From a virus (Duplodnaviria > Heunggongvirae > Uroviricota > Caudoviricetes): a stretch of 5,437 nucleotides of DNA. The stretch is from positions 1 through 5,437 of IMG/VR virus record IMGVR_UViG_3300039367_000062; one strand, given 5' to 3'. The position numbers were made by a program, and so were the translations under genes. The notes beneath the pieces were generated by a model. The model was given only the letters and a program-made list of their open reading frames with translations, made no database searches and was not told the DNA's origin. Below are positions 1-5,361 of the stretch, one piece after another (within the stretch, counting starts at the first letter, position 1; the number at the start of each line of letters is the position of its first letter).

Positions 1-314
1 TATTTCTCACGGATTACGGCGTCTATTTTTTCTTCCATCCGTTTATAGTCAGGAAGAAGGCGTTTCAGTGGAGCGGGAATATCCTGGCAATACGCTTCTG
101 TTGCATCATGCATTAACGCTTCAAAAGCAAATTCCTGCGGCACCAGCTGGCTGCAAAGCACCGCATGCTGGGCGACACTGTAGAAGTGTGAAAGATGTCC
201 TGCAAAGCGACAGATATTTGAAAGGGAAACCGCGATATCGTTAATCACGATGTCGTCTTTATTTATCTTGTCATAATAAAAATGCTTCCCGGAAAAAGTT
301 TTAATAAATGACAT
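1..314 (-). CDS. yfdR: HD-domain phosphohydrolase (YfdR-like), 5' part only; gene continues beyond window start
   Basis: Manual minus-strand translation from ATG at 314..312: MSFIKTFSGKHFYYDKINKDDIVINDIAVSLSNICRFAGHLSHFYSVAQHAVLCSQLVPQEFAFEALMHDATEAYCQDIPAPLKRLLPDYKRMEEKIDAVIREK, open to the window edge. It shows the H...HD metal-binding signature (GHLSH, LMHDATE). A GGAGA Shine-Dalgarno lies 5 nt upstream of the ATG. Not in the supplied ORF track because it is truncated. The symbol is from memory of the CPS-53 prophage HD protein and is less certain than the family call. Confidence 0.75.
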   Translation of the reverse strand, partial: MSFIKTFSGKHFYYDKINKDDIVINDIAVSLSNICRFAGHLSHFYSVAQHAVLCSQLVPQEFAFEALMHDATEAYCQDIPAPLKRLLPDYKRMEEKIDAVIREK

Positions 315-404: not shown

Positions 405-1322
405 TTAAGTTGTTGGATTTTGGCTTTTATCTTCTTTGTAAGAAAGAAGGTCACACATCAAATTAACTACCTTGCTGAATTGGAAAAGGTCAGCGCCAGT
501 CTGATGACGCCACTGGAATGCTTTATCATCTTCATCATTAAATGTCTGAGATTGAGTATTGATGCGCGAAAAATGGAAATTTTCGGTAAGAATGAAGGTC
601 ACACCGCAACCGGATAACTCCATTTTATCAGCAGTGAAACTACTACTAAGGCTATCGGCCAGTTCGCTTTGAATTGACTCATGCTCAGCTGAGTAGCGAA
701 TAATTTCCTTTTGATCTGCGTAGCGCGATAGCTGAATATAATTTCCGACAGTGAATCCTTCAAATGCATTGGCTGCACCATTGATGTAGTTATTCAGGCG
801 TGTAGTCAGTCCATTCTTGATATCACTGATGTTGATTGTTTCTGTTTTCACTGAACCGACAACCTTAATCAGCATTGCGCATACCATACCGGCTATTATT
901 TTATTGGTTGTGTTGATTACCAATAATTTCTCATCAGTGCTGTACAATGCAAGAATCAGAGTAGACTTAACAAATGCCTGTTTGCATAGATCTACTCGTA
1001 CGTTATCAATAATGGCCAGTCGTTCGGCACGCTTTAATTTATTCCCGGACATATTTTCGGTTGTTTGGATTCGAGAATTAGCTTCTTTCATGACGACATG
1101 TCGGGGAATTATTTTCTGATCATGACGGATTACCATTGCGTACCCACCAGATATCGGAGTTACCAGTTCACCAGTGACAGGATTCTCTACAAAAGAGGAC
1201 CGTGAAAATTCTGTTTCCCCGATTTCAGAATAAGGGAGTTCGAGAAGATGACCTTCAATAGCCTGTATACTAGGTAATGTTGCTCGGTACACAATTGCGT
1301 TACGAAATTTTGGTAATTTCAT
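405..1322 (-). CDS. RdgC-family recombination-associated protein (phage type), about 305 aa
   Basis: Internal ATG at 1322..1320 of the 405..1694 ORF, preceded by GAGGA with 8-nt spacing. N-terminus MKLPKFRNAIVYRA matches the RdgC N-terminal pattern (F-x-N-x-x-VYR), and overall length is RdgC-like. The 124-codon in-frame extension upstream is the translation of the GC-rich noncoding island, not protein. Confidence 0.8.
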   Translation of the reverse strand: MKLPKFRNAIVYRATLPSIQAIEGHLLELPYSEIGETEFSRSSFVENPVTGELVTPISGGYAMVIRHDQKIIPRHVVMKEANSRIQTTENMSGNKLKRAERLAIIDNVRVDLCKQAFVKSTLILALYSTDEKLLVINTTNKIIAGMVCAMLIKVVGSVKTETINISDIKNGLTTRLNNYINGAANAFEGFTVGNYIQLSRYADQKEIIRYSAEHESIQSELADSLSSSFTADKMELSGCGVTFILTENFHFSRINTQSQTFNDEDDKAFQWRHQTGADLFQFSKVVNLMCDLLSYKEDKSQNPTT

Positions 1323-1357
1323 TCTATTTTCCTCTGCACAATGTATTAGTTTCTCCA

Positions 1358-1700
1358 CAAAACAGAGAAGAACACCTGCGGTGGCAGCCGCCCGGATGGA
1401 TTGGGTTATGAGCCCGTCGTCCGGTGATGCTCTTCTCTGTTTTGCAAAAAAGGACGGTACCAGCCGGAAGCAAGGGTACAAACTGGTACCGCCAGGACTA
1501 CACACAGCATAAAGTTGTGGTGCCGGGTGCCTCCCGGTGCCTGGCGAAGGTTGCACACCAGGCGGGTGGGTATCCACAGAAGGTCGACTGTCAGCCTCAA
1601 CCTTAACCCGCGTGCGCTGAGCCGCATTCACCACAACGCTAAGGATTCTCTCTGGTTGAAAATACTTAGCTGTTATGTGCCTGCTTTTAGCCACATCAGG
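1358..1700. other. GC-rich, ORF-poor structured island (candidate ncRNA or cis-acting RNA element)
   Basis: About 62% GC in sampled 60-nt blocks, visibly higher than the flanking genes. All six frames are open but give non-protein-like, P/G/R-rich translations. Perfect 13-bp inverted repeat CAAAACAGAGAAG (1358..1370) / CTTCTCTGTTTTG (1432..1444); 9-bp inverted repeat CGGTACCAG (1455..1463) / CTGGTACCG (1483..1491); GGTGCC three times in 1519..1541 with a CCGGG/CCCGG hairpin. Confidence 0.3.
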
Positions 1701-1739
1701 CGAGGTGGACCTGGTTATTCCCCAACAACAAGGATTCGG

Positions 1740-1762
1740 TTAATCTGGATATCCCCAACAAC
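1740..1762. repeat. Left arm of an imperfect inverted repeat flanking the 1779..2294 gene; also overlaps a 13-bp direct repeat
   Basis: TTAATCTGGATATCCCCAACAAC is the reverse complement, with a 2-bp indel, of the 2303..2326 arm; core ATCTGGATATCC is identical. TCCCCAACAACAA occurs twice in direct orientation (1719..1731 and 1752..1764). Confidence 0.5.
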
Positions 1763-2436: not shown

Positions 2437-2450
2437 GGTACATTATGTAT
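2437..2450. promoter_or_regulatory. Operator-like site (OL candidate) overlapping the pL -10
   Basis: GGTACATTATGTAT matches 12 of 14 positions with GGTACATATTGTAT at 3262..3275 on the other side of the repressor gene, and contains the TACA/TGTA dyad. Confidence 0.35.
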
Positions 2451-2469
2451 CCCAAAGGCACATTGTCAA
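2442..2469 (-). promoter_or_regulatory. pL-like sigma-70 promoter driving leftward early transcription
   Basis: On the minus strand: -35 TTGACA (plus 2464..2469), 16-bp spacer, -10 CATAAT (plus 2442..2447). It sits immediately beyond the repressor-gene terminator and is overlapped by the operator-like site. Confidence 0.45.
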
Positions 2470-2508: not shown

Positions 2509-3183
2509 TTAGGCTTTGATTTTGTATCTTCTTGGTTTTCCTGAGAAAATCACAGTTCCAATTATAGAGCAATTACCGTTGATCTTAATGTAAGGCTCAG
2601 GCCAGTTTGGGTTTAACGCTTTGAGATAACGCTGTGTCCCATCTTCTATCAACCTTTTGAAGGTGGTTTCACCTGTATCGTGCATCAATGCAATAACGTC
2701 GTCACCGTGGCAGGCAGGTACTTCAGGATCGACAAAAATCATGTCTCCCGGGCGGTACTCATCAATCATTGAATCACCTATCACCCGCAAGATATAAGTC
2801 ATTTCCCCACAGGGTACAGGGCAGGGATACGTTTCTGCTGTGCTCAAATCAACCTCAGAATATCCAACTTCTTTCCATGCTCCGGCCTGTACCCATGATA
2901 TGACAGGGACTAATGTGATTTGTTTATTAGTGATTGAAACATCAGGTTTTTTTGTGATGTTCGTTGTCTGGTGTTCTTGATCGAGCCATCCGACAGGCAG
3001 GTCGAAACATTTTTCGATGTGTCGTGCCATGCTGTCACCGATATTTTTAGTAGCACCATCTCCCATAAACCTGCTGGTCTGGGTTGGCTCGCGATCAATC
3101 ATAGTGGCAAAGGAAGAATTCCCGCCAACACCATCTCTCAGTTTTCTGGCGTTAGACCGCCGGATGTCATGGATTGTTTTCAT
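2509..3183 (-). CDS. CI-type prophage repressor: N-terminal HTH, C-terminal S24 (LexA-like) autopeptidase domain
   Basis: 224-aa ORF. C-terminal domain carries the Ser/Lys dyad signature (VIGDSM ... TTFKRL) typical of LexA, lambda CI and UmuD. N-terminal region is HTH-like (QTSRFMG...ARHIEKCFDLPVGWLD). It is divergent from the Cro-like gene, with operators between. Confidence 0.9.
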   Translation of the reverse strand: MKTIHDIRRSNARKLRDGVGGNSSFATMIDREPTQTSRFMGDGATKNIGDSMARHIEKCFDLPVGWLDQEHQTTNITKKPDVSITNKQITLVPVISWVQAGAWKEVGYSEVDLSTAETYPCPVPCGEMTYILRVIGDSMIDEYRPGDMIFVDPEVPACHGDDVIALMHDTGETTFKRLIEDGTQRYLKALNPNWPEPYIKINGNCSIIGTVIFSGKPRRYKIKA

Positions 3184-3261: not shown

Positions 3262-3275
3262 GGTACATATTGTAT
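3262..3275. promoter_or_regulatory. Operator-like site overlapping the cro-like ribosome-binding site and start codon
   Basis: GGTACATATTGTAT, a near-duplicate of 2437..2450; it contains the cro-like ATG. Confidence 0.35.
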
Positions 3276-3474
3276 GAAAGCGTATTGGGACTCTTTAACC
3301 AAAGAACAGCAGGGCGAGTTGGCCGGAAAAGTTGGCTCAACACCTGGCTACTTACGGCTGGTTTTCAATGGCTATAAAAAAGCCAGTTTTGTGCTGGCTA
3401 AAAAACTTGAGCAATGCACGTCAGGTGCAATTACGAAATCTGACTTAAGACCGGATATCTATCCGAAAGATTAG
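3274..3474 (+). CDS. Cro-like small HTH regulator (66 aa)
   Basis: Internal ATG of the 2971..3474 ORF, whose upstream part is antisense to the repressor gene. GGAGG at 3259..3263, 10 nt upstream. Protein MKAYWDSLTKEQQGELAGKVGSTPGYLRLVFNGYKKASFVLAKKLEQCTSGAITKSDLRPDIYPKD has a small HTH-like pattern, and the position is the first rightward gene divergent from the repressor. Confidence 0.75.
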   Translation: MKAYWDSLTKEQQGELAGKVGSTPGYLRLVFNGYKKASFVLAKKLEQCTSGAITKSDLRPDIYPKD

Positions 3475-3505: not shown

Positions 3506-4075
3506 ATGAGGCTAATCGTGGGTAAGCATCACTGGAAAATAGAAAAACAGCCTGAGTGGTACGTGAAAGCTGTCAGAAAAACTATCGCGGCGTTGCCGGG
3601 TGGTTACGCTGAAGCGGCTGACTGGCTCGATGTAACAGAAAACGCTTTATTCAACCGCCTTCGTGCAGATGGCGATCAGATTTTCCCGCTGGGATGGGCA
3701 ATGGTTTTACAGCGTGCTGGTGGCACTCATTTCATTGCTGATGCTGTGGCGCAGTCTGCAAATGGCGTCTTTGTGTCTCTTCCTGACGTCGAGGATGTGG
3801 ACAACGCCGATATTAACCAGCGTCTGCTGGAAGTCATTGAACAGATCGGCAGTTATTCAAAACAGATTCGTTCAGCAATCGAAGACGGTGTAGTGGAACC
3901 GCATGAGAAGACAGCAATTAACGACGAGCTGTATCTCTCAATTTCGAAGCTGCAGGAGCATGCAGCACTTGTCTACAAAATTTTTTGCATTTCAGAAAGT
4001 AATGACGCCCGCGAGTGTGCAGCTCCGGGCGTCGTGGCGTCGATTGCTTCTGGTTGTGGAGAAACTAACGCATGA
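3506..4075 (+). CDS. CII-like / YdaT-like early regulatory protein (putative), 189 aa
   Basis: Second gene of the rightward operon, occupying the cII position. Alternative GTG start at 3518 has a GAGG 6 nt upstream. The functional assignment is positional and from weak family resemblance only. Confidence 0.65.
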
Positions 4076-4410: not shown

Positions 4411-4430
4411 AGGTCGGTCATGAGCACTAA
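4251..4430 (+). CDS. Hypothetical small protein (about 59 aa) upstream of and overlapping the replication gene start
   Basis: TTG at 4251 with AAGGAGA 7 nt upstream (GTG 4209 is an alternative start). The translation ...[56 protein letters not shown] is protein-like with preferred codons. It overlaps the next gene by 11 nt. Confidence 0.45.
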
Positions 4431-5361
4431 ATTAACCGGCTATGTATGGGATGGTTGCGCAGCGTCAGGCATGAAATTATCCAGCGTGGCAATTATGGCC
4501 CGCCTGGCTGATTTCAGTAATGACGAAGGTGTGTGCTGGCCATCGATTGAAACCATTGCCCGCCAGATTGGCGCGGGGATGAGTACAGTCAGAACGGCTA
4601 TCGCACGGCTGGAAGCAGAAGGCTGGTTAACGCGTAAGGCGCGTCGCCAGGGTAACCGCAATGCGTCGAATGTTTATCAGCTTAACGTTGCGAAGCTTCA
4701 GGCTGCGGCATTTTCTCAACTGTCAGATTCTGACCCGTCAAAATCTGACGCATCAAAATCTGACCCGTCAAAATTTGATGCGTCGAAATCTGGCAAAAAA
4801 GCGGGTTTTCACCCGTCAGAATCTGGCGGGGATCCGTCAGTAAAATCAAAACATGATCCGTCAGATAAAAAACCTTCTCGTCCGGACGCTTCGCAACCGG
4901 ACACGCAGACGGCTGAACAGGATTTTTTAACTCGCCATCCTGATGCGGTTGTATTCAGCCCTAAAAAGCGCCAGTGGGGGACGCAGGATGATTTGACCTG
5001 CGCACAGTGGCTCTGGAAAAAAATCATCGCCCTGTACGAGCAGGCTGCCGAATGTGACGGCGAGGTGGTTCGTCCCAAAGAACCGAACTGGACAGCCTGG
5101 GCAAACGAAATTCGCCTGATGTGTGTGCAGGATGGTCGTACTCACAAACAAATCTGCGAGATGTACAGCCGCGTCAGCCGCGATCCGTTCTGGTGCCGTA
5201 ACGTGCTCAGCCCGTCGAAGCTGCGGGAAAAATGGGATGAGCTTTCCCTGCGCTTATCGCCGTCCGTAAGCACGTACACCGAAAAACGCGAAGACCCGTA
5301 CTTCAAAGCCAGTTACGACAACGTGGACTACAGCCAGATCCCGGCAGGATTCAGGGGGTAA
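4420..5361 (+). CDS. Replication initiator (lambda O-like): N-terminal HTH DNA-binding domain, repeat linker containing the origin iterons, C-terminal domain
   Basis: 313-aa ORF with GAGG 6 nt upstream. The N-terminal [13 protein letters not shown]...MSTVRTAIARLEAEGWLTRKARRQGNRNASNVYQLNV is an HTH of the type found in phage replication initiators. An internal 15-bp tandem repeat array encodes SK[SF]D[PA] repeats. It sits in the O position after the cro/cII-like genes. Confidence 0.85.
   Translation: MSTKLTGYVWDGCAASGMKLSSVAIMARLADFSNDEGVCWPSIETIARQIGAGMSTVRTAIARLEAEGWLTRKARRQGNRNASNVYQLNVAKLQAAAFSQLSDSDPSKSDASKSDPSKFDASKSGKKAGFHPSESGGDPSVKSKHDPSDKKPSRPDASQPDTQTAEQDFLTRHPDAVVFSPKKRQWGTQDDLTCAQWLWKKIIALYEQAAECDGEVVRPKEPNWTAWANEIRLMCVQDGRTHKQICEMYSRVSRDPFWCRNVLSPSKLREKWDELSLRLSPSVSTYTEKREDPYFKASYDNVDYSQIPAGFRG
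4722..4796. repeat. Iteron array (candidate phage replication origin) inside the initiator gene
   Basis: Five tandem 15-bp units: GTCAGATTCTGACCC, GTCAAAATCTGACGC, ATCAAAATCTGACCC, GTCAAAATTTGATGC, GTCGAAATCTGGCAA. Each has a GTCA...TGAC internal dyad. Degenerate copies (CCGTCAGAATCTGG, CCGTCAGTAAAATC, CCGTCAGATAAAAAA) continue to about 4875, followed by A/T-rich stretches. Confidence 0.7.

What the first reader, a model, noticed from the sequence alone, without database searches (positions are those of the whole stretch)
1358..1700. GC-rich, ORF-free structured island between rdgC and the moron gene: candidate ncRNA or cis-acting RNA
About 62% GC in a window that is otherwise AT-biased. Every frame is open, but the translations are P/G/R-rich and non-protein-like; the open frames explain the spurious 429-aa and 259-aa extended ORFs in the track. 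There are several perfect inverted repeats (13 bp at 1358..1370 / 1432..1444; 9 bp at 1455..1463 / 1483..1491), GGTGCC three times, and a CCGGG/CCCGG hairpin. No N-like antiterminator ORF lies between the pL-like promoter and rdgC, so a protein-independent RNA antitermination element (put-like) on the leftward transcript is one hypothesis. Alternatives are an sRNA, a long structured 5' UTR of the rightward gene, or a decayed remnant of an inserted element. I could not match it to a known ncRNA, tRNA, retron ncRNA, or IS end.
Basis: seen in the sequence. Interest (0 to 1): 0.65.

Follow-up and report, generated by a model that had tools for sequence, protein, structure and literature searches.

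The report
Structured leader RNA of prophage early-left operon
The GC-rich "island" is a real, conserved non-coding RNA region read leftward from the prophage's early promoter: a pseudoknotted RNA domain related to the known prophage small RNAs STnc100/PasD, then a transcription terminator, then a long hairpin, so it probably gates expression of the early-left genes, though its mechanism is untested.

Summary
The inverted repeats and the GGTGCC triplet are there, but GC is 55%, not 62%, and only one of six frames is open.

The region is non-coding and is functional on the minus strand. It folds far better than shuffles (z -6.5, against -2.5 for the plus strand).

It has three RNA modules:
- **Core (1514-1637):** a pseudoknotted multi-helix domain that matches Rfam STnc100 (40.3 bits, E 2e-6, below the gathering score of 47). 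It scores 73.8 bits against a model I built only from canonical STnc100-type copies.
- **Terminator (1446-1493):** an intrinsic terminator. Four phage lineages carry different stem sequences at the same place.
- **Hairpin (1351-1451):** a roughly 25-bp stem with compensatory changes. Its tip is identical over 14 nt to the initiator-tRNA anticodon arm.

This variant has no promoter of its own. In at least six prophage lineages it lies between the repressor gene/pL and the first early-left gene.

My best reading is an STnc100-class leader/attenuator RNA. Put-like antitermination has no support from sequence similarity but is not excluded. The decayed-gene, IS-remnant and rightward-UTR readings are rejected. 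I rate it a new variant of a known kind.

The parts
2442..2469 (-). pL-like early-left promoter (TTGACA-16-CATAAT). It lies just downstream of the repressor gene's terminator (2478-2497) and is the presumed source of the leader transcript.
   Evidence: 11 of 12 consensus matches; terminator-like site 2497-2478. The S24 repressor at 2509-3183 is confirmed.
1691..1708 (-). Small 5' hairpin CCAC-N10-GUGG (CCACCUCGCCUGAUGUGG).
   Evidence: Read. The same hairpin, with changes in loop and stem, is seen in SfV, Lelliottia L022, Buttiauxella L053, phiES15, F1055 and Kp4866.
1514..1637 (-). STnc100-type pseudoknotted core.
- P1 closing stem: 1629-1637 with 1514-1522
- GGUGAAU: 1626-1632
- P2 hairpin: 1610-1625
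- P3: GGG/CCC
- P5 hairpin: 1540-1562
- Pseudoknot: AAGGUUG (1598-1604) with the P5 loop CAACCUU (1547-1553)
- P6: CCGGG-AGGCA-CCCGG (1523-1537)
   Evidence: Rfam STnc100 at 1444-1667 on the minus strand: 40.3 bits, E 2.3e-6. Model R1, built only from canonical copies: 73.8 bits, E 5e-20 at 1507-1644. Covariation in P1, P2, P3 and P5. Pseudoknot test.
1494..1513 (-). Single-stranded linker UUUAUGCUGUGUGUAGUCCU. The motif UGCUGUGUGUAGUC is conserved in lineages that carry different terminators. It is a candidate seed or regulatory segment.
   Evidence: window/SfV, ST64B, phiES15, Kp4866.
1446..1493 (-). Intrinsic-terminator-like hairpin T1: a 13-bp stem (GGCGGUACCAGUU / GGCUGGUACCGUC), a 15-nt loop, then C plus U6.
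   Evidence: -20.5 kcal/mol. Four lineages have different stem sequences followed by U5-U7 at the same place. Variant L013 changes U-G to C-G and to U-A. The consensus scanner missed T1 because its loop limit is 8 nt.
1351..1451 (-). Long hairpin hp2. Its basal stem of about 25 bp re-uses the U-tract of T1 and pairs it with GUGGAGAAA. It has a three-way junction with two apical arms (arm B: 1378-1391). It ends 28 nt before the rdgC start codon.
Evidence: Compensatory and wobble changes between the E. coli, Salmonella and Klebsiella versions.
1403..1416 (-). Tip of hp2 arm A, CGGGCUCAUAACCC. It is identical over 14 nt to the anticodon stem-loop of E. coli initiator tRNA (metY).
   Evidence: Relatives keep GGGCUCAUUACCC. 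ARAGORN finds no tRNA in the window.
405..1322 (-). rdgC-like gene, the first gene downstream of the leader. Most relatives have yfdP-like genes or kil here instead. The mosaic junction is at about 1346.
   Evidence: PF04381, E 2.6e-30. The junction is seen (hits start at window 1345/1346). F1055 also has rdgC in this position.

Best explanation
Window 1351-1708 is the non-coding leader of the early-left (pL) operon of an SfV/ST64B-type lambdoid prophage that has no N protein. It is transcribed leftward.

Shown:
- It contains a pseudoknotted multi-helix RNA domain homologous to the core of the STnc100/PasD prophage sRNA family.
- This is followed by a conserved single-stranded linker and an intrinsic terminator (T1).
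- A long conserved hairpin (hp2) then abuts the ribosome-binding region of the first gene.

Inferred mechanism:
- After the repressor is lost, pL transcripts fold into the core.
- A large share of them stop at T1. This releases an STnc100-like RNA (core, linker, terminator with U-tail, the architecture of the Hfq-dependent family members). That RNA may act in trans through the conserved linker.
- T1 keeps the early-left genes silent against stray transcription in the lysogen.
- The fraction that reads through forms hp2, a double-stranded stem of about 25 bp. This is the kind of structure RNase III cuts in the lambda N leader. Cutting would separate the leader from the rdgC mRNA.

Whether the core itself sets the read-through frequency at T1 is the open step.
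For: Strand and structure:
- The minus strand folds at z -6.5, the plus strand at z -2.5.
- The full-length STnc100 match is on the minus strand.
- A model built from 85 canonical copies, none of the window's subtype, scores the window at 73.8 bits.
- Compensatory changes support P1, P2, P3 and P5.
- The P5 loop pairs with the segment after P2 over at least 6 bp in 70% of sequences, against 27% for mismatched sequence pairs. One example is window AAGGUUG/CAACCUU against phiES15 AAGGCUG/CAGCCUU.

Non-coding: indels of 1, 13 and 19 nt, and substitutions of 19/29/32 by codon position against ST64B.

Position: the element lies between the repressor gene and the first early-left gene in SfV, ST64B, 118970_sal3, phiES15, Buttiauxella, Pantoea and Lelliottia prophages. 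The repressors and first genes differ among them.

Terminator: four unrelated stem sequences occur at the same site, each followed by U5-U7, at -13 to -33 kcal/mol.

hp2: covariation across three genera.

Family biology from papers:
- STnc100 copies are transcribed in uninduced EHEC, and one was confirmed by Northern blot (PMC5331693).
- PasD1/2 are Hfq-dependent and have many RIL-seq partners (PMC8550237).
- PasD and STnc100 are considered related (bioRxiv 10.64898/2026.05.13.724894).
Against: - There are no expression data for this variant.
- It has no convincing promoter of its own (CAGCTA-16-GAGAAT, 6 of 12). A T1-terminated RNA made from pL would be about 1 kb unless it is processed.
- 8 of the 11 distinct copies of this subtype that I found have no terminator after the core and lie 36-150 nt upstream of an ORF (Buttiauxella, Pantoea, Lelliottia, Citrobacter, P1-like SJ46). 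There the core cannot work as a terminated sRNA. This points to a cis role that my mechanism does not explain.
- The Rfam score is below the curated threshold (40.3 against 47).
- The invariance of GGUGAAU and CCGGGAGGCACCCGG in my alignments is by construction of the search pattern, which also inflates the R1 score.
- RNase III cleavage of hp2 and termination at T1 are predictions only.
Confidence: 0.5

Rival explanations
1. The core is a cis-acting antitermination device. It would be a functional analogue of HK022/HK639 put RNA, or a Nus-factor (boxA)-dependent site like nut or rrn leaders. It would make polymerase that started at pL resistant to T1, to downstream terminators and to Rho on the roughly 1.1 kb untranslated leader. 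This would replace the missing N protein.
For: - There is no N-like ORF.
- A strong conserved terminator lies between pL and all early-left genes, and the leader is long and untranslated.
- The core always lies upstream of that terminator, in the pL leader of several N-less prophage lineages.
- Copies without any terminator must act in cis.
- Many relatives have a boxA-like UGCUCUCUUCG or UGCUCUUUCCG immediately 5' of P1. The comparison with the rrn boxA UGCUCUUUAACAA is from my own knowledge.
Against: - There is no similarity to HK022 or HK639 put.
- The window's own boxA-like segment is degenerate (AAUCCUUAGCG).
- The core lies about 800 nt from pL, not next to it.
- There is no second copy in the right operon of the window.
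- Canonical copies with the same invariant core have their own promoter and a terminator and lie just upstream of P21-type holin genes. An unconditional antiterminator there would drive lysis genes in lysogens.
- mEp460 and Stx2c phages carry the same T1/hp2 module with a different domain inside the same P1 frame. It matches the core model weakly in mEp460 and not at all in Stx2c.
Confidence: 0.2
2. The core is a sensor domain (a riboswitch-like aptamer, or the binding site of a protein). It would switch the downstream terminator or the translation start on or off in response to a signal. The sRNAs seen for family members would then be the terminated 'off' products.
For: - The junction and loop nucleotides are highly invariant while the helices covary, and there is a pseudoknot.
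- Many copies have the promoter-core-terminator-gene layout, and tandem copies occur.
- The element lies in 5' leaders of varied genes: P21-type holins, a KdgM-family porin, TerB, a MarR-type regulator and early-left operons.
Against: - It matches no known riboswitch class in Rfam.
- The downstream genes share no obvious metabolic theme.
- I saw no shared alternative pairing between the core and the terminators, whose sequences differ completely between lineages. I did not test this statistically.
- Part of the invariance is forced by my search pattern.
Confidence: 0.12
3. The island is a decayed protein-coding gene, an IS/REP remnant or a tRNA-gene relic with no present function. Alternatively it is the 5' UTR of the rightward gene at 1779-2294.
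For: - RefSeq annotates a 'frameshifted hypothetical protein' over the equivalent of 1323-1634 in O103:H2 str. 12009.
- One minus-strand frame is open across the island.
- hp2 carries a 14-nt tRNA-fMet identity.
Against: - Indels are not multiples of three and there is no third-position bias.
- The ORFs here match no PHROG family.
- Compensatory base changes occur in at least six helices across genera.
- There is a median of one copy per E. coli genome, always in the same prophage position.
- No tRNA is found.
- The element is present in SfV and ST64B, which lack the rightward gene.
- The plus strand folds much worse than the minus strand.
Confidence: 0.03

Closest known systems
STnc100 (Rfam RF02076) and the PasD1/PasD2 prophage sRNAs of Salmonella, EHEC and EPEC
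   Same: The core is homologous:
- P1 closing stem and GGUGAAU
- P2 hairpin with a UNNGC loop
- P3 and P5
- P6 CCGGG-AGGCA-CCCGG, then CACC

Both have a linker and then an intrinsic terminator with a U-tail. Both are of lambdoid prophage origin.
   Different: - The window scores below Rfam's gathering threshold (40.3 against 47).
- P2 is GCG/CGC instead of CCCC/GGGG.
- It has no sigma-70 promoter of its own. Many canonical copies have TTGAC(N)-17/18-TAnnnT ending about 8 nt before the core.
- It sits in the pL leader between the repressor gene and the early-left genes, not between Q and the lysis genes.
- It is followed by the extra hairpin hp2.
- Expression and Hfq binding are unknown.
put antiterminator RNAs of phages HK022 (putL/putR) and HK639 (putL)
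   Same: Both are structured RNAs in the early-left transcript of a lambdoid phage that lacks N, upstream of terminators that must be passed. The HK022 biology is from PMC9378689.
   Different: - No sequence similarity.
- The fold differs: put has two stems with a triple helix (PMC9378689), whereas this is a five-helix junction with a pseudoknot.
- It is not adjacent to the promoter.
- There is no right-operon copy in the window.
- HK639 itself carries a canonical STnc100 (52.6 bits) in its late region in addition to putL. The two are therefore different things.
Lambda nutL / N-leader region (boxA, boxB, RNase III hairpin upstream of N)
   Same: Both are leaders of the pL operon. Relatives have a boxA-like motif 5' of a structured element. 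Both have a long double-stranded hairpin just upstream of the first gene's ribosome-binding site. The lambda facts are from my own knowledge.
   Different: - There is no N gene and no boxB-type pentaloop hairpin.
- The boxA-like motif is degenerate in this window.
- RNase III cleavage has not been shown.
Terminated leader transcripts that double as sRNAs (lambda 6S RNA / StxS from pR'-tR')
   Same: Both have a phage promoter followed by a structured leader and an intrinsic terminator ahead of an operon. The short product can be a regulatory RNA. This is from my own knowledge of Sy et al. 2020, which I did not read here.
   Different: - The operon differs (early-left, not late).
- No Q-type protein is known to act here.
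- The sequences are unrelated.

Membership tests
STnc100 (Rfam RF02076) | Score at or above Rfam's curated gathering threshold (47 bits) | tested here: not met
   40.3 bits, E 2.3e-6, full model 1-206, minus strand 1667-1444. SfV scores 39.5 and ST64B 35.1.
STnc100 (Rfam RF02076) | Homology of the structured core to canonical copies | tested here: met
   Model R1 was built from 85 canonical-type copies with no copy of the window's subtype. It gives 73.8 bits, E 5e-20, full length. Caveat: both sets were picked with a pattern that fixes 22 nt.
STnc100 (Rfam RF02076) | Helices P1, P2, P3, P5 and P6 can form and covary in the family, plus the P5-loop pseudoknot | tested here: met
   (for example P1 UA:47/CG:29; P3 GC:41/AU:14/UA:14/CG:7; P5 GC:37/AU:27/CG:8). 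for the pseudoknot. The window forms all of them.
STnc100 (Rfam RF02076) | Intrinsic terminator 20-60 nt downstream of the core | tested here: met
   T1 at 1446-1493, 20 nt after P1, -20.5 kcal/mol, followed by U6.
STnc100 (Rfam RF02076) | Own constitutive sigma-70 promoter immediately upstream (independent sRNA gene) | tested here: not met
   The best candidate is CAGCTA-16-GAGAAT, 6 of 12. The scanner finds none. ST64B has GAGAAC at that place.
STnc100 (Rfam RF02076) | Location in the late region (Q / stx / esterase / holin neighbourhood) | tested here: not met
   The window copy lies between pL and rdgC. Canonical copies lie upstream of holins or between Q and holin (PMC12370729).
STnc100 (Rfam RF02076) | Stable, Hfq-dependent transcript | not testable with these tools
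   Known only for other members (PMC8550237, PMC5331693).
put antiterminator RNA (HK022 / HK639) | Sequence or structure similarity to putL/putR | tested here: not met
   blastn-short against HK022 22000-31000 and HK639 33000-38200 gave only chance hits of 16 nt or less with E of 0.26 or more. The HK639 putL sequence was read.
put antiterminator RNA (HK022 / HK639) | Lies in an early operon of an N-less lambdoid phage, upstream of terminators | tested here: met
   However, it is about 800 nt from pL and there is no right-operon copy.
put antiterminator RNA (HK022 / HK639) | Promotes terminator read-through in cis and depends on the beta' zinc-binding domain | not testable with these tools
   Needs transcription assays.
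N-dependent nut site | boxA plus a boxB hairpin, and an N protein gene | tested here: not met
   There is no N-like ORF. The window's boxA-like segment matches only 4-5 of 8 positions by eye. Relatives have better boxA-like motifs.
tRNA / tmRNA gene | Cloverleaf detected by ARAGORN | tested here: not met
   0 genes. Only a 14-nt anticodon-arm identity to metY.
Known riboswitch or other Rfam family | Covariance-model match | tested here: not met
   The permissive scan of the window returns only STnc100 and a spurious miRNA hit.

The most novel reading that the evidence does not exclude
The STnc100-type pseudoknot may not be just an sRNA body. It could be a cis-acting control domain that decides whether polymerase passes the terminator that follows it. 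In this subtype it would be the N-independent switch for the whole early-left operon of SfV/ST64B/phiES15-type phages (and the ban-operon leader of P1). That would make it a third kind of phage antitermination or attenuation RNA, beside nut and put.

A second, more speculative reading concerns the tip of hp2. It copies the initiator-tRNA anticodon arm and could act as a mimic: a decoy or sensor for tRNA-fMet-cleaving VapC-type toxins, or a binding site for the initiation machinery.
Probability: 0.2. Interest if true: 0.8.

Novelty: new variant of a known kind. Interest (0 to 1): 0.55.

Why it matters
STnc100/PasD RNAs are among the most abundant prophage transcripts in pathogenic E. coli and Salmonella, yet their conserved body has no known function.

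Three results here give the family a testable cis-regulatory hypothesis:
- The same pseudoknotted core also occurs without a promoter in the pL leader of a large group of N-less lambdoid prophages. That group is present in more than half of complete E. coli genomes.
- The core is also in phage P1.
- It is followed by a terminator that has been replaced repeatedly but never lost.

This also bears on an old gap: how SfV-type phages express their early-left genes without an N protein.

Tried and rejected
- **tRNA/tmRNA:** none found.
- **Rfam:** the permissive scan gave only STnc100 plus a spurious miRNA hit on the replication-gene iterons.
- **put homology:** I fetched HK639 and HK022. There is no similarity. 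King et al. 2011 (PMC3187212) is not held.
- **Coding potential:** rejected from the indel pattern and codon-position counts against ST64B and from PHROG scans.
- **K-12 as a source of expression data:** CPS-53 has lost the whole immunity region and the element.
- **Self-targeting by the linker:** there is no complementary site elsewhere in the window.
- **Own promoter:** none is credible.
- **Downstream 233-aa ORF in Kosakonia/Klebsiella copies:** my first guess of LpxR was wrong. It is a KdgM-family porin.
- **Literature on ST64B/SfV leader RNAs:** nothing found.
- **Alignment quality:** the MAFFT alignment A1 was too poorly aligned in the variable middle to judge P5 and the pseudoknot. I replaced it with a per-sequence test and with alignment A2.
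- **Search limits:** two searches failed on the 100-kb limit.

Full report
**Context**

The window is the immunity region of an SfV/ST64B/CPS-53-type lambdoid prophage of E. coli.
- On the minus strand lie an RdgC-family gene (405-1322, PF04381) and an S24 repressor (2509-3183).
- On the plus strand lie a cro-like gene (3274-3474), a CII-like gene (3506-4075) and a replication gene with iterons (4420-5361).
- A terminator-like hairpin follows the repressor gene (2497-2478).
- A near-consensus promoter then points leftward (2469-2442; TTGACA-16-CATAAT, 11 of 12).
- Between that promoter and rdgC lies a plus-strand gene of unknown function (1779-2294, phrog_1244). It has its own terminator and is bracketed by a 19-nt inverted repeat.
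- No minus-strand ORF in this stretch matches a phage protein family. There is no N-like gene.

**Observation check**

Two statements are wrong.
- GC of 1358-1700 is 55.4%, not 62%. The flanks are 40.7% and 47.3%.
- Only one of the six frames is free of stops.

The structure is well beyond chance and is strand-specific.
- The minus-strand RNA of 1340-1720 folds at -157.9 kcal/mol, z -6.49, and no shuffle is as good.
- The plus strand reaches -143.9 kcal/mol, z -2.53.

**It is not coding and not a dispersed repeat**
- Against Salmonella phage ST64B (about 76% identity) the region shows indels of 1, 13, 19, 1 and 4 nt. Substitutions fall 19/29/32 over the three positions of the open frame.
- RefSeq's 'frameshifted hypothetical protein' over this stretch in O103:H2 str. 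12009 is therefore an annotation artefact.
- The segment occurs in 3008 of 5426 complete E. coli genomes, with a median of one copy per genome, in prophages.
- Every top hit starts at window 1345/1346. That point is a mosaic junction where rdgC has replaced the more usual yfdP.

**Identity of the core**

A permissive Rfam scan gives one relevant hit: STnc100 (RF02076), full model 1-206, on the minus strand at 1667-1444. It scores 40.3 bits with E 2.3e-6, below the gathering score of 47. SfV and ST64B give the same sub-threshold hit at the same place.

To test the relationship independently, I scanned one genome per species with GGTGAAT-N65-95-CCGGGAGGCACCCGG.
- The scan gave 120 stretches in many Enterobacterales genera.
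- I aligned 132 distinct copies (A1).
- I then aligned the 85 canonical-type copies alone (A2).

RNAalifold and pair counts show the following helices.

| Helix | Description | Covariation seen |
|---|---|---|
| P1 | Closing stem | UA:47 / CG:29 at one pair |
| P2 | Hairpin | 99% paired, with CG, GC and UA types |
| P3 | Short helix | GC:41, AU:14, UA:14, CG:7 |
| P5 | Hairpin | GC:37, AU:27, CG:8, UA:4 |
| P6 | CCGGG-AGGCA-CCCGG | Invariant |

A per-sequence test shows that the P5 loop pairs with the segment just after P2.
- At least 6 contiguous pairs form in 70% of sequences, against 27% when loops and targets come from different sequences.
- The pairing sequences are many and different.
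- This is an H-type pseudoknot.

The window can form every one of these helices, including the pseudoknot AAGGUUG/CAACCUU. phiES15 has the doubly changed AAGGCUG/CAGCCUU. Klebsiella phage Kp4866-6 has GGUGG-AGGCA-CCACC in place of P6.

A covariance model built only from the canonical copies finds the window element at 73.8 bits, E 5e-20, full length. Two caveats apply.
- The 22 nucleotides fixed by my pattern inflate that score.
- The same fixed nucleotides make the invariance of those positions uninformative.

**Two subtypes**

Canonical copies have these features.
- P2 is CCCC/GGGG.
- There is typically a sigma-70 promoter ending about 8 nt before the core and a terminator 20-60 nt after it.
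- They lie upstream of P21-type holins, a KdgM-family porin, a MarR-type regulator and other genes.
- HK639 has one between Q and the holin gene, at 52.6 bits.

Published work shows that such copies are transcribed in uninduced cells and that PasD is Hfq-dependent (PMC5331693, PMC8550237, bioRxiv 10.64898/2026.05.13.724894).

The window belongs to a second subtype with these features.
- P2 is GCG/CGC.
- It has no credible promoter of its own.
- Its position is conserved: between the repressor gene and the first early-left gene. This holds in SfV, ST64B, 118970_sal3, phiES15 (upstream of kil) and in Buttiauxella, Pantoea and Lelliottia prophages. The repressors and first genes differ among them.
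- The same subtype sits upstream of tciA (TerB) in the ban operon of P1-like phages, including P1 itself, where it is unannotated.

**Terminator and second hairpin**

Twenty nucleotides after P1 comes T1 (1446-1493). It has a 13-bp stem, then C and six U.
- The intervening linker UGCUGUGUGUAGUC is conserved.
- The terminator stem is a different sequence in the SfV, ST64B, Kp4866-6 and phiES15 lineages. Each is followed by U5-U7, at -13 to -33 kcal/mol.
- An E. coli variant changes two U-G pairs to C-G and U-A.
- This is selection for a terminator on the minus-strand RNA.

hp2 (1351-1451) has a basal stem of about 25 bp that re-uses the T1 U-tract.
- It shows compensatory and wobble changes among the E. 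coli, Salmonella and Klebsiella versions.
- It ends in a three-way junction whose small arm also covaries.
- The tip of the other arm, CGGGCUCAUAACCC (1416-1403), is identical over 14 nt to the anticodon stem-loop of initiator tRNA metY.
- By my arithmetic the chance of such a match in this window is about 1.6e-4. I noticed it after the fact.

The T1/hp2 module also occurs in mEp460 and Stx2c phages. Those phages have a different inner domain within the same P1 frame (GUUGUGGU...ACCACAAC).

**Mechanism**

What is shown: the region is a leftward, non-coding, conserved leader with an STnc100-type pseudoknot, a terminator and a long hairpin ahead of the early-left genes.

What I infer as most likely (about 0.5):
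- The leader is an attenuator.
- pL transcripts largely stop at T1, giving an STnc100-like RNA.
- T1 also shields the early-left genes in the lysogen.
- Read-through transcripts are processed at hp2.

The main weakness is that 8 of the 11 distinct copies of this subtype lack a terminator and sit 36-150 nt upstream of an ORF. The core therefore probably has a cis function that I cannot name.

The put-like rival (about 0.2):
- It gains from the absence of N, the obligatory terminator, and boxA-like motifs next to P1 in relatives.
- It loses from the lack of similarity to put and the degenerate boxA in this window.
- It also loses from canonical copies with constitutive promoters just upstream of holin genes.

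A ligand- or protein-sensing switch (about 0.12) fits the invariant junctions and the leader contexts, but there is no direct evidence for it. Remnant, coding and rightward-UTR readings are effectively excluded.

**Verdict**

The feature is real. It is a promoter-less, leader-embedded variant of the STnc100/PasD family with two added conserved modules. I rate it a new variant of a known kind, with interest 0.55.

Noticed in passing
window 1403-1416 (minus strand): The tip of hairpin hp2, CGGGCUCAUAACCC, is identical over 14 nt to the anticodon stem-loop of E. coli initiator tRNA metY. Salmonella and Klebsiella relatives keep GGGCUCAUUACCC. Its meaning is unknown: a tRNA relic, a mimic, or a decoy for tRNA-fMet-cleaving toxins.
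   Followed up: partly
window 1742-1760 and 2303-2321: A 19-nt inverted repeat (95% complementary) brackets the plus-strand gene 1779-2294 (phrog_1244, unknown function). That gene lies antisense within the pL transcript. The repeat could mark the insertion of this gene, or form a long-range stem in the leftward RNA.
   Followed up: no
L133 2750-2960, L007 3700-3830, L134 2700-2960, L132, L080/L085/L087 (minus-strand leaders): Related leaders carry a boxA-like motif UGCUCUCUUCG (SJ46: UGCUCUUUCCG) immediately 5' of P1. Upstream of it lie two T-arm-like hairpins, CUGGUUCGAUUCCAG and GUCCGUUCAAUUCGGAC. The window has only a degenerate AAUCCUUAGCG.
   Followed up: partly
L006 3653-3801, L007 about 3700-3790, L133 about 2700-2790: mEp460, Stx2c phages and F1055 keep the same P1 frame (GUUGUGGU...ACCACAAC), linker position and T1/hp2 module. 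They hold a different inner domain. It matches the core model weakly in mEp460 (18 bits) and not at all in Stx2c and F1055. The frame looks like an exchangeable cassette.
   Followed up: partly
L008 2495-2632 (phage P1 NC_005856, about 70071-70208): Phage P1 carries a full, unannotated copy of the STnc100-type core (75.5 bits with model R1; loop AAGCA instead of AGGCA). It lies just upstream of tciA in the C1-controlled ban operon.
   Followed up: partly
L041, L056, L098 (Superficieibacter), L042, L122 (Pantoea), L125: These loci have tandem arrays of two or three STnc100-type units spaced roughly 170-580 nt apart. In several arrays each unit has its own promoter-like and terminator-like signals, and the arrays often lie just upstream of holin-like ORFs.
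   Followed up: no
L054, L110, L111, L047, L119 and other Kosakonia/Klebsiella/Enterobacter loci: A 113-nt variant of the core lies 85-230 nt upstream of a 233-aa KdgM-family porin gene (PF06178). In some loci a terminator lies between them. This looks like a 5' leader element of a porin gene.
   Followed up: partly
window 4721-4795: Iteron-like direct repeats (TCTGACCCGTCAAAA and variants) inside the replication-initiator gene produced a spurious miRNA-family hit. They are probably the phage origin. K-12 CPS-53 retains the same repeats fused next to yfdP.
   Followed up: no
L002, L003, L006, L007 (right operons): SfV, ST64B, mEp460 and the Stx2c phage carry IsrK- and C4-type RNAs in the right operon, inside the gene annotated as an antirepressor/transcriptional regulator. 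The window has no such hits.
   Followed up: no
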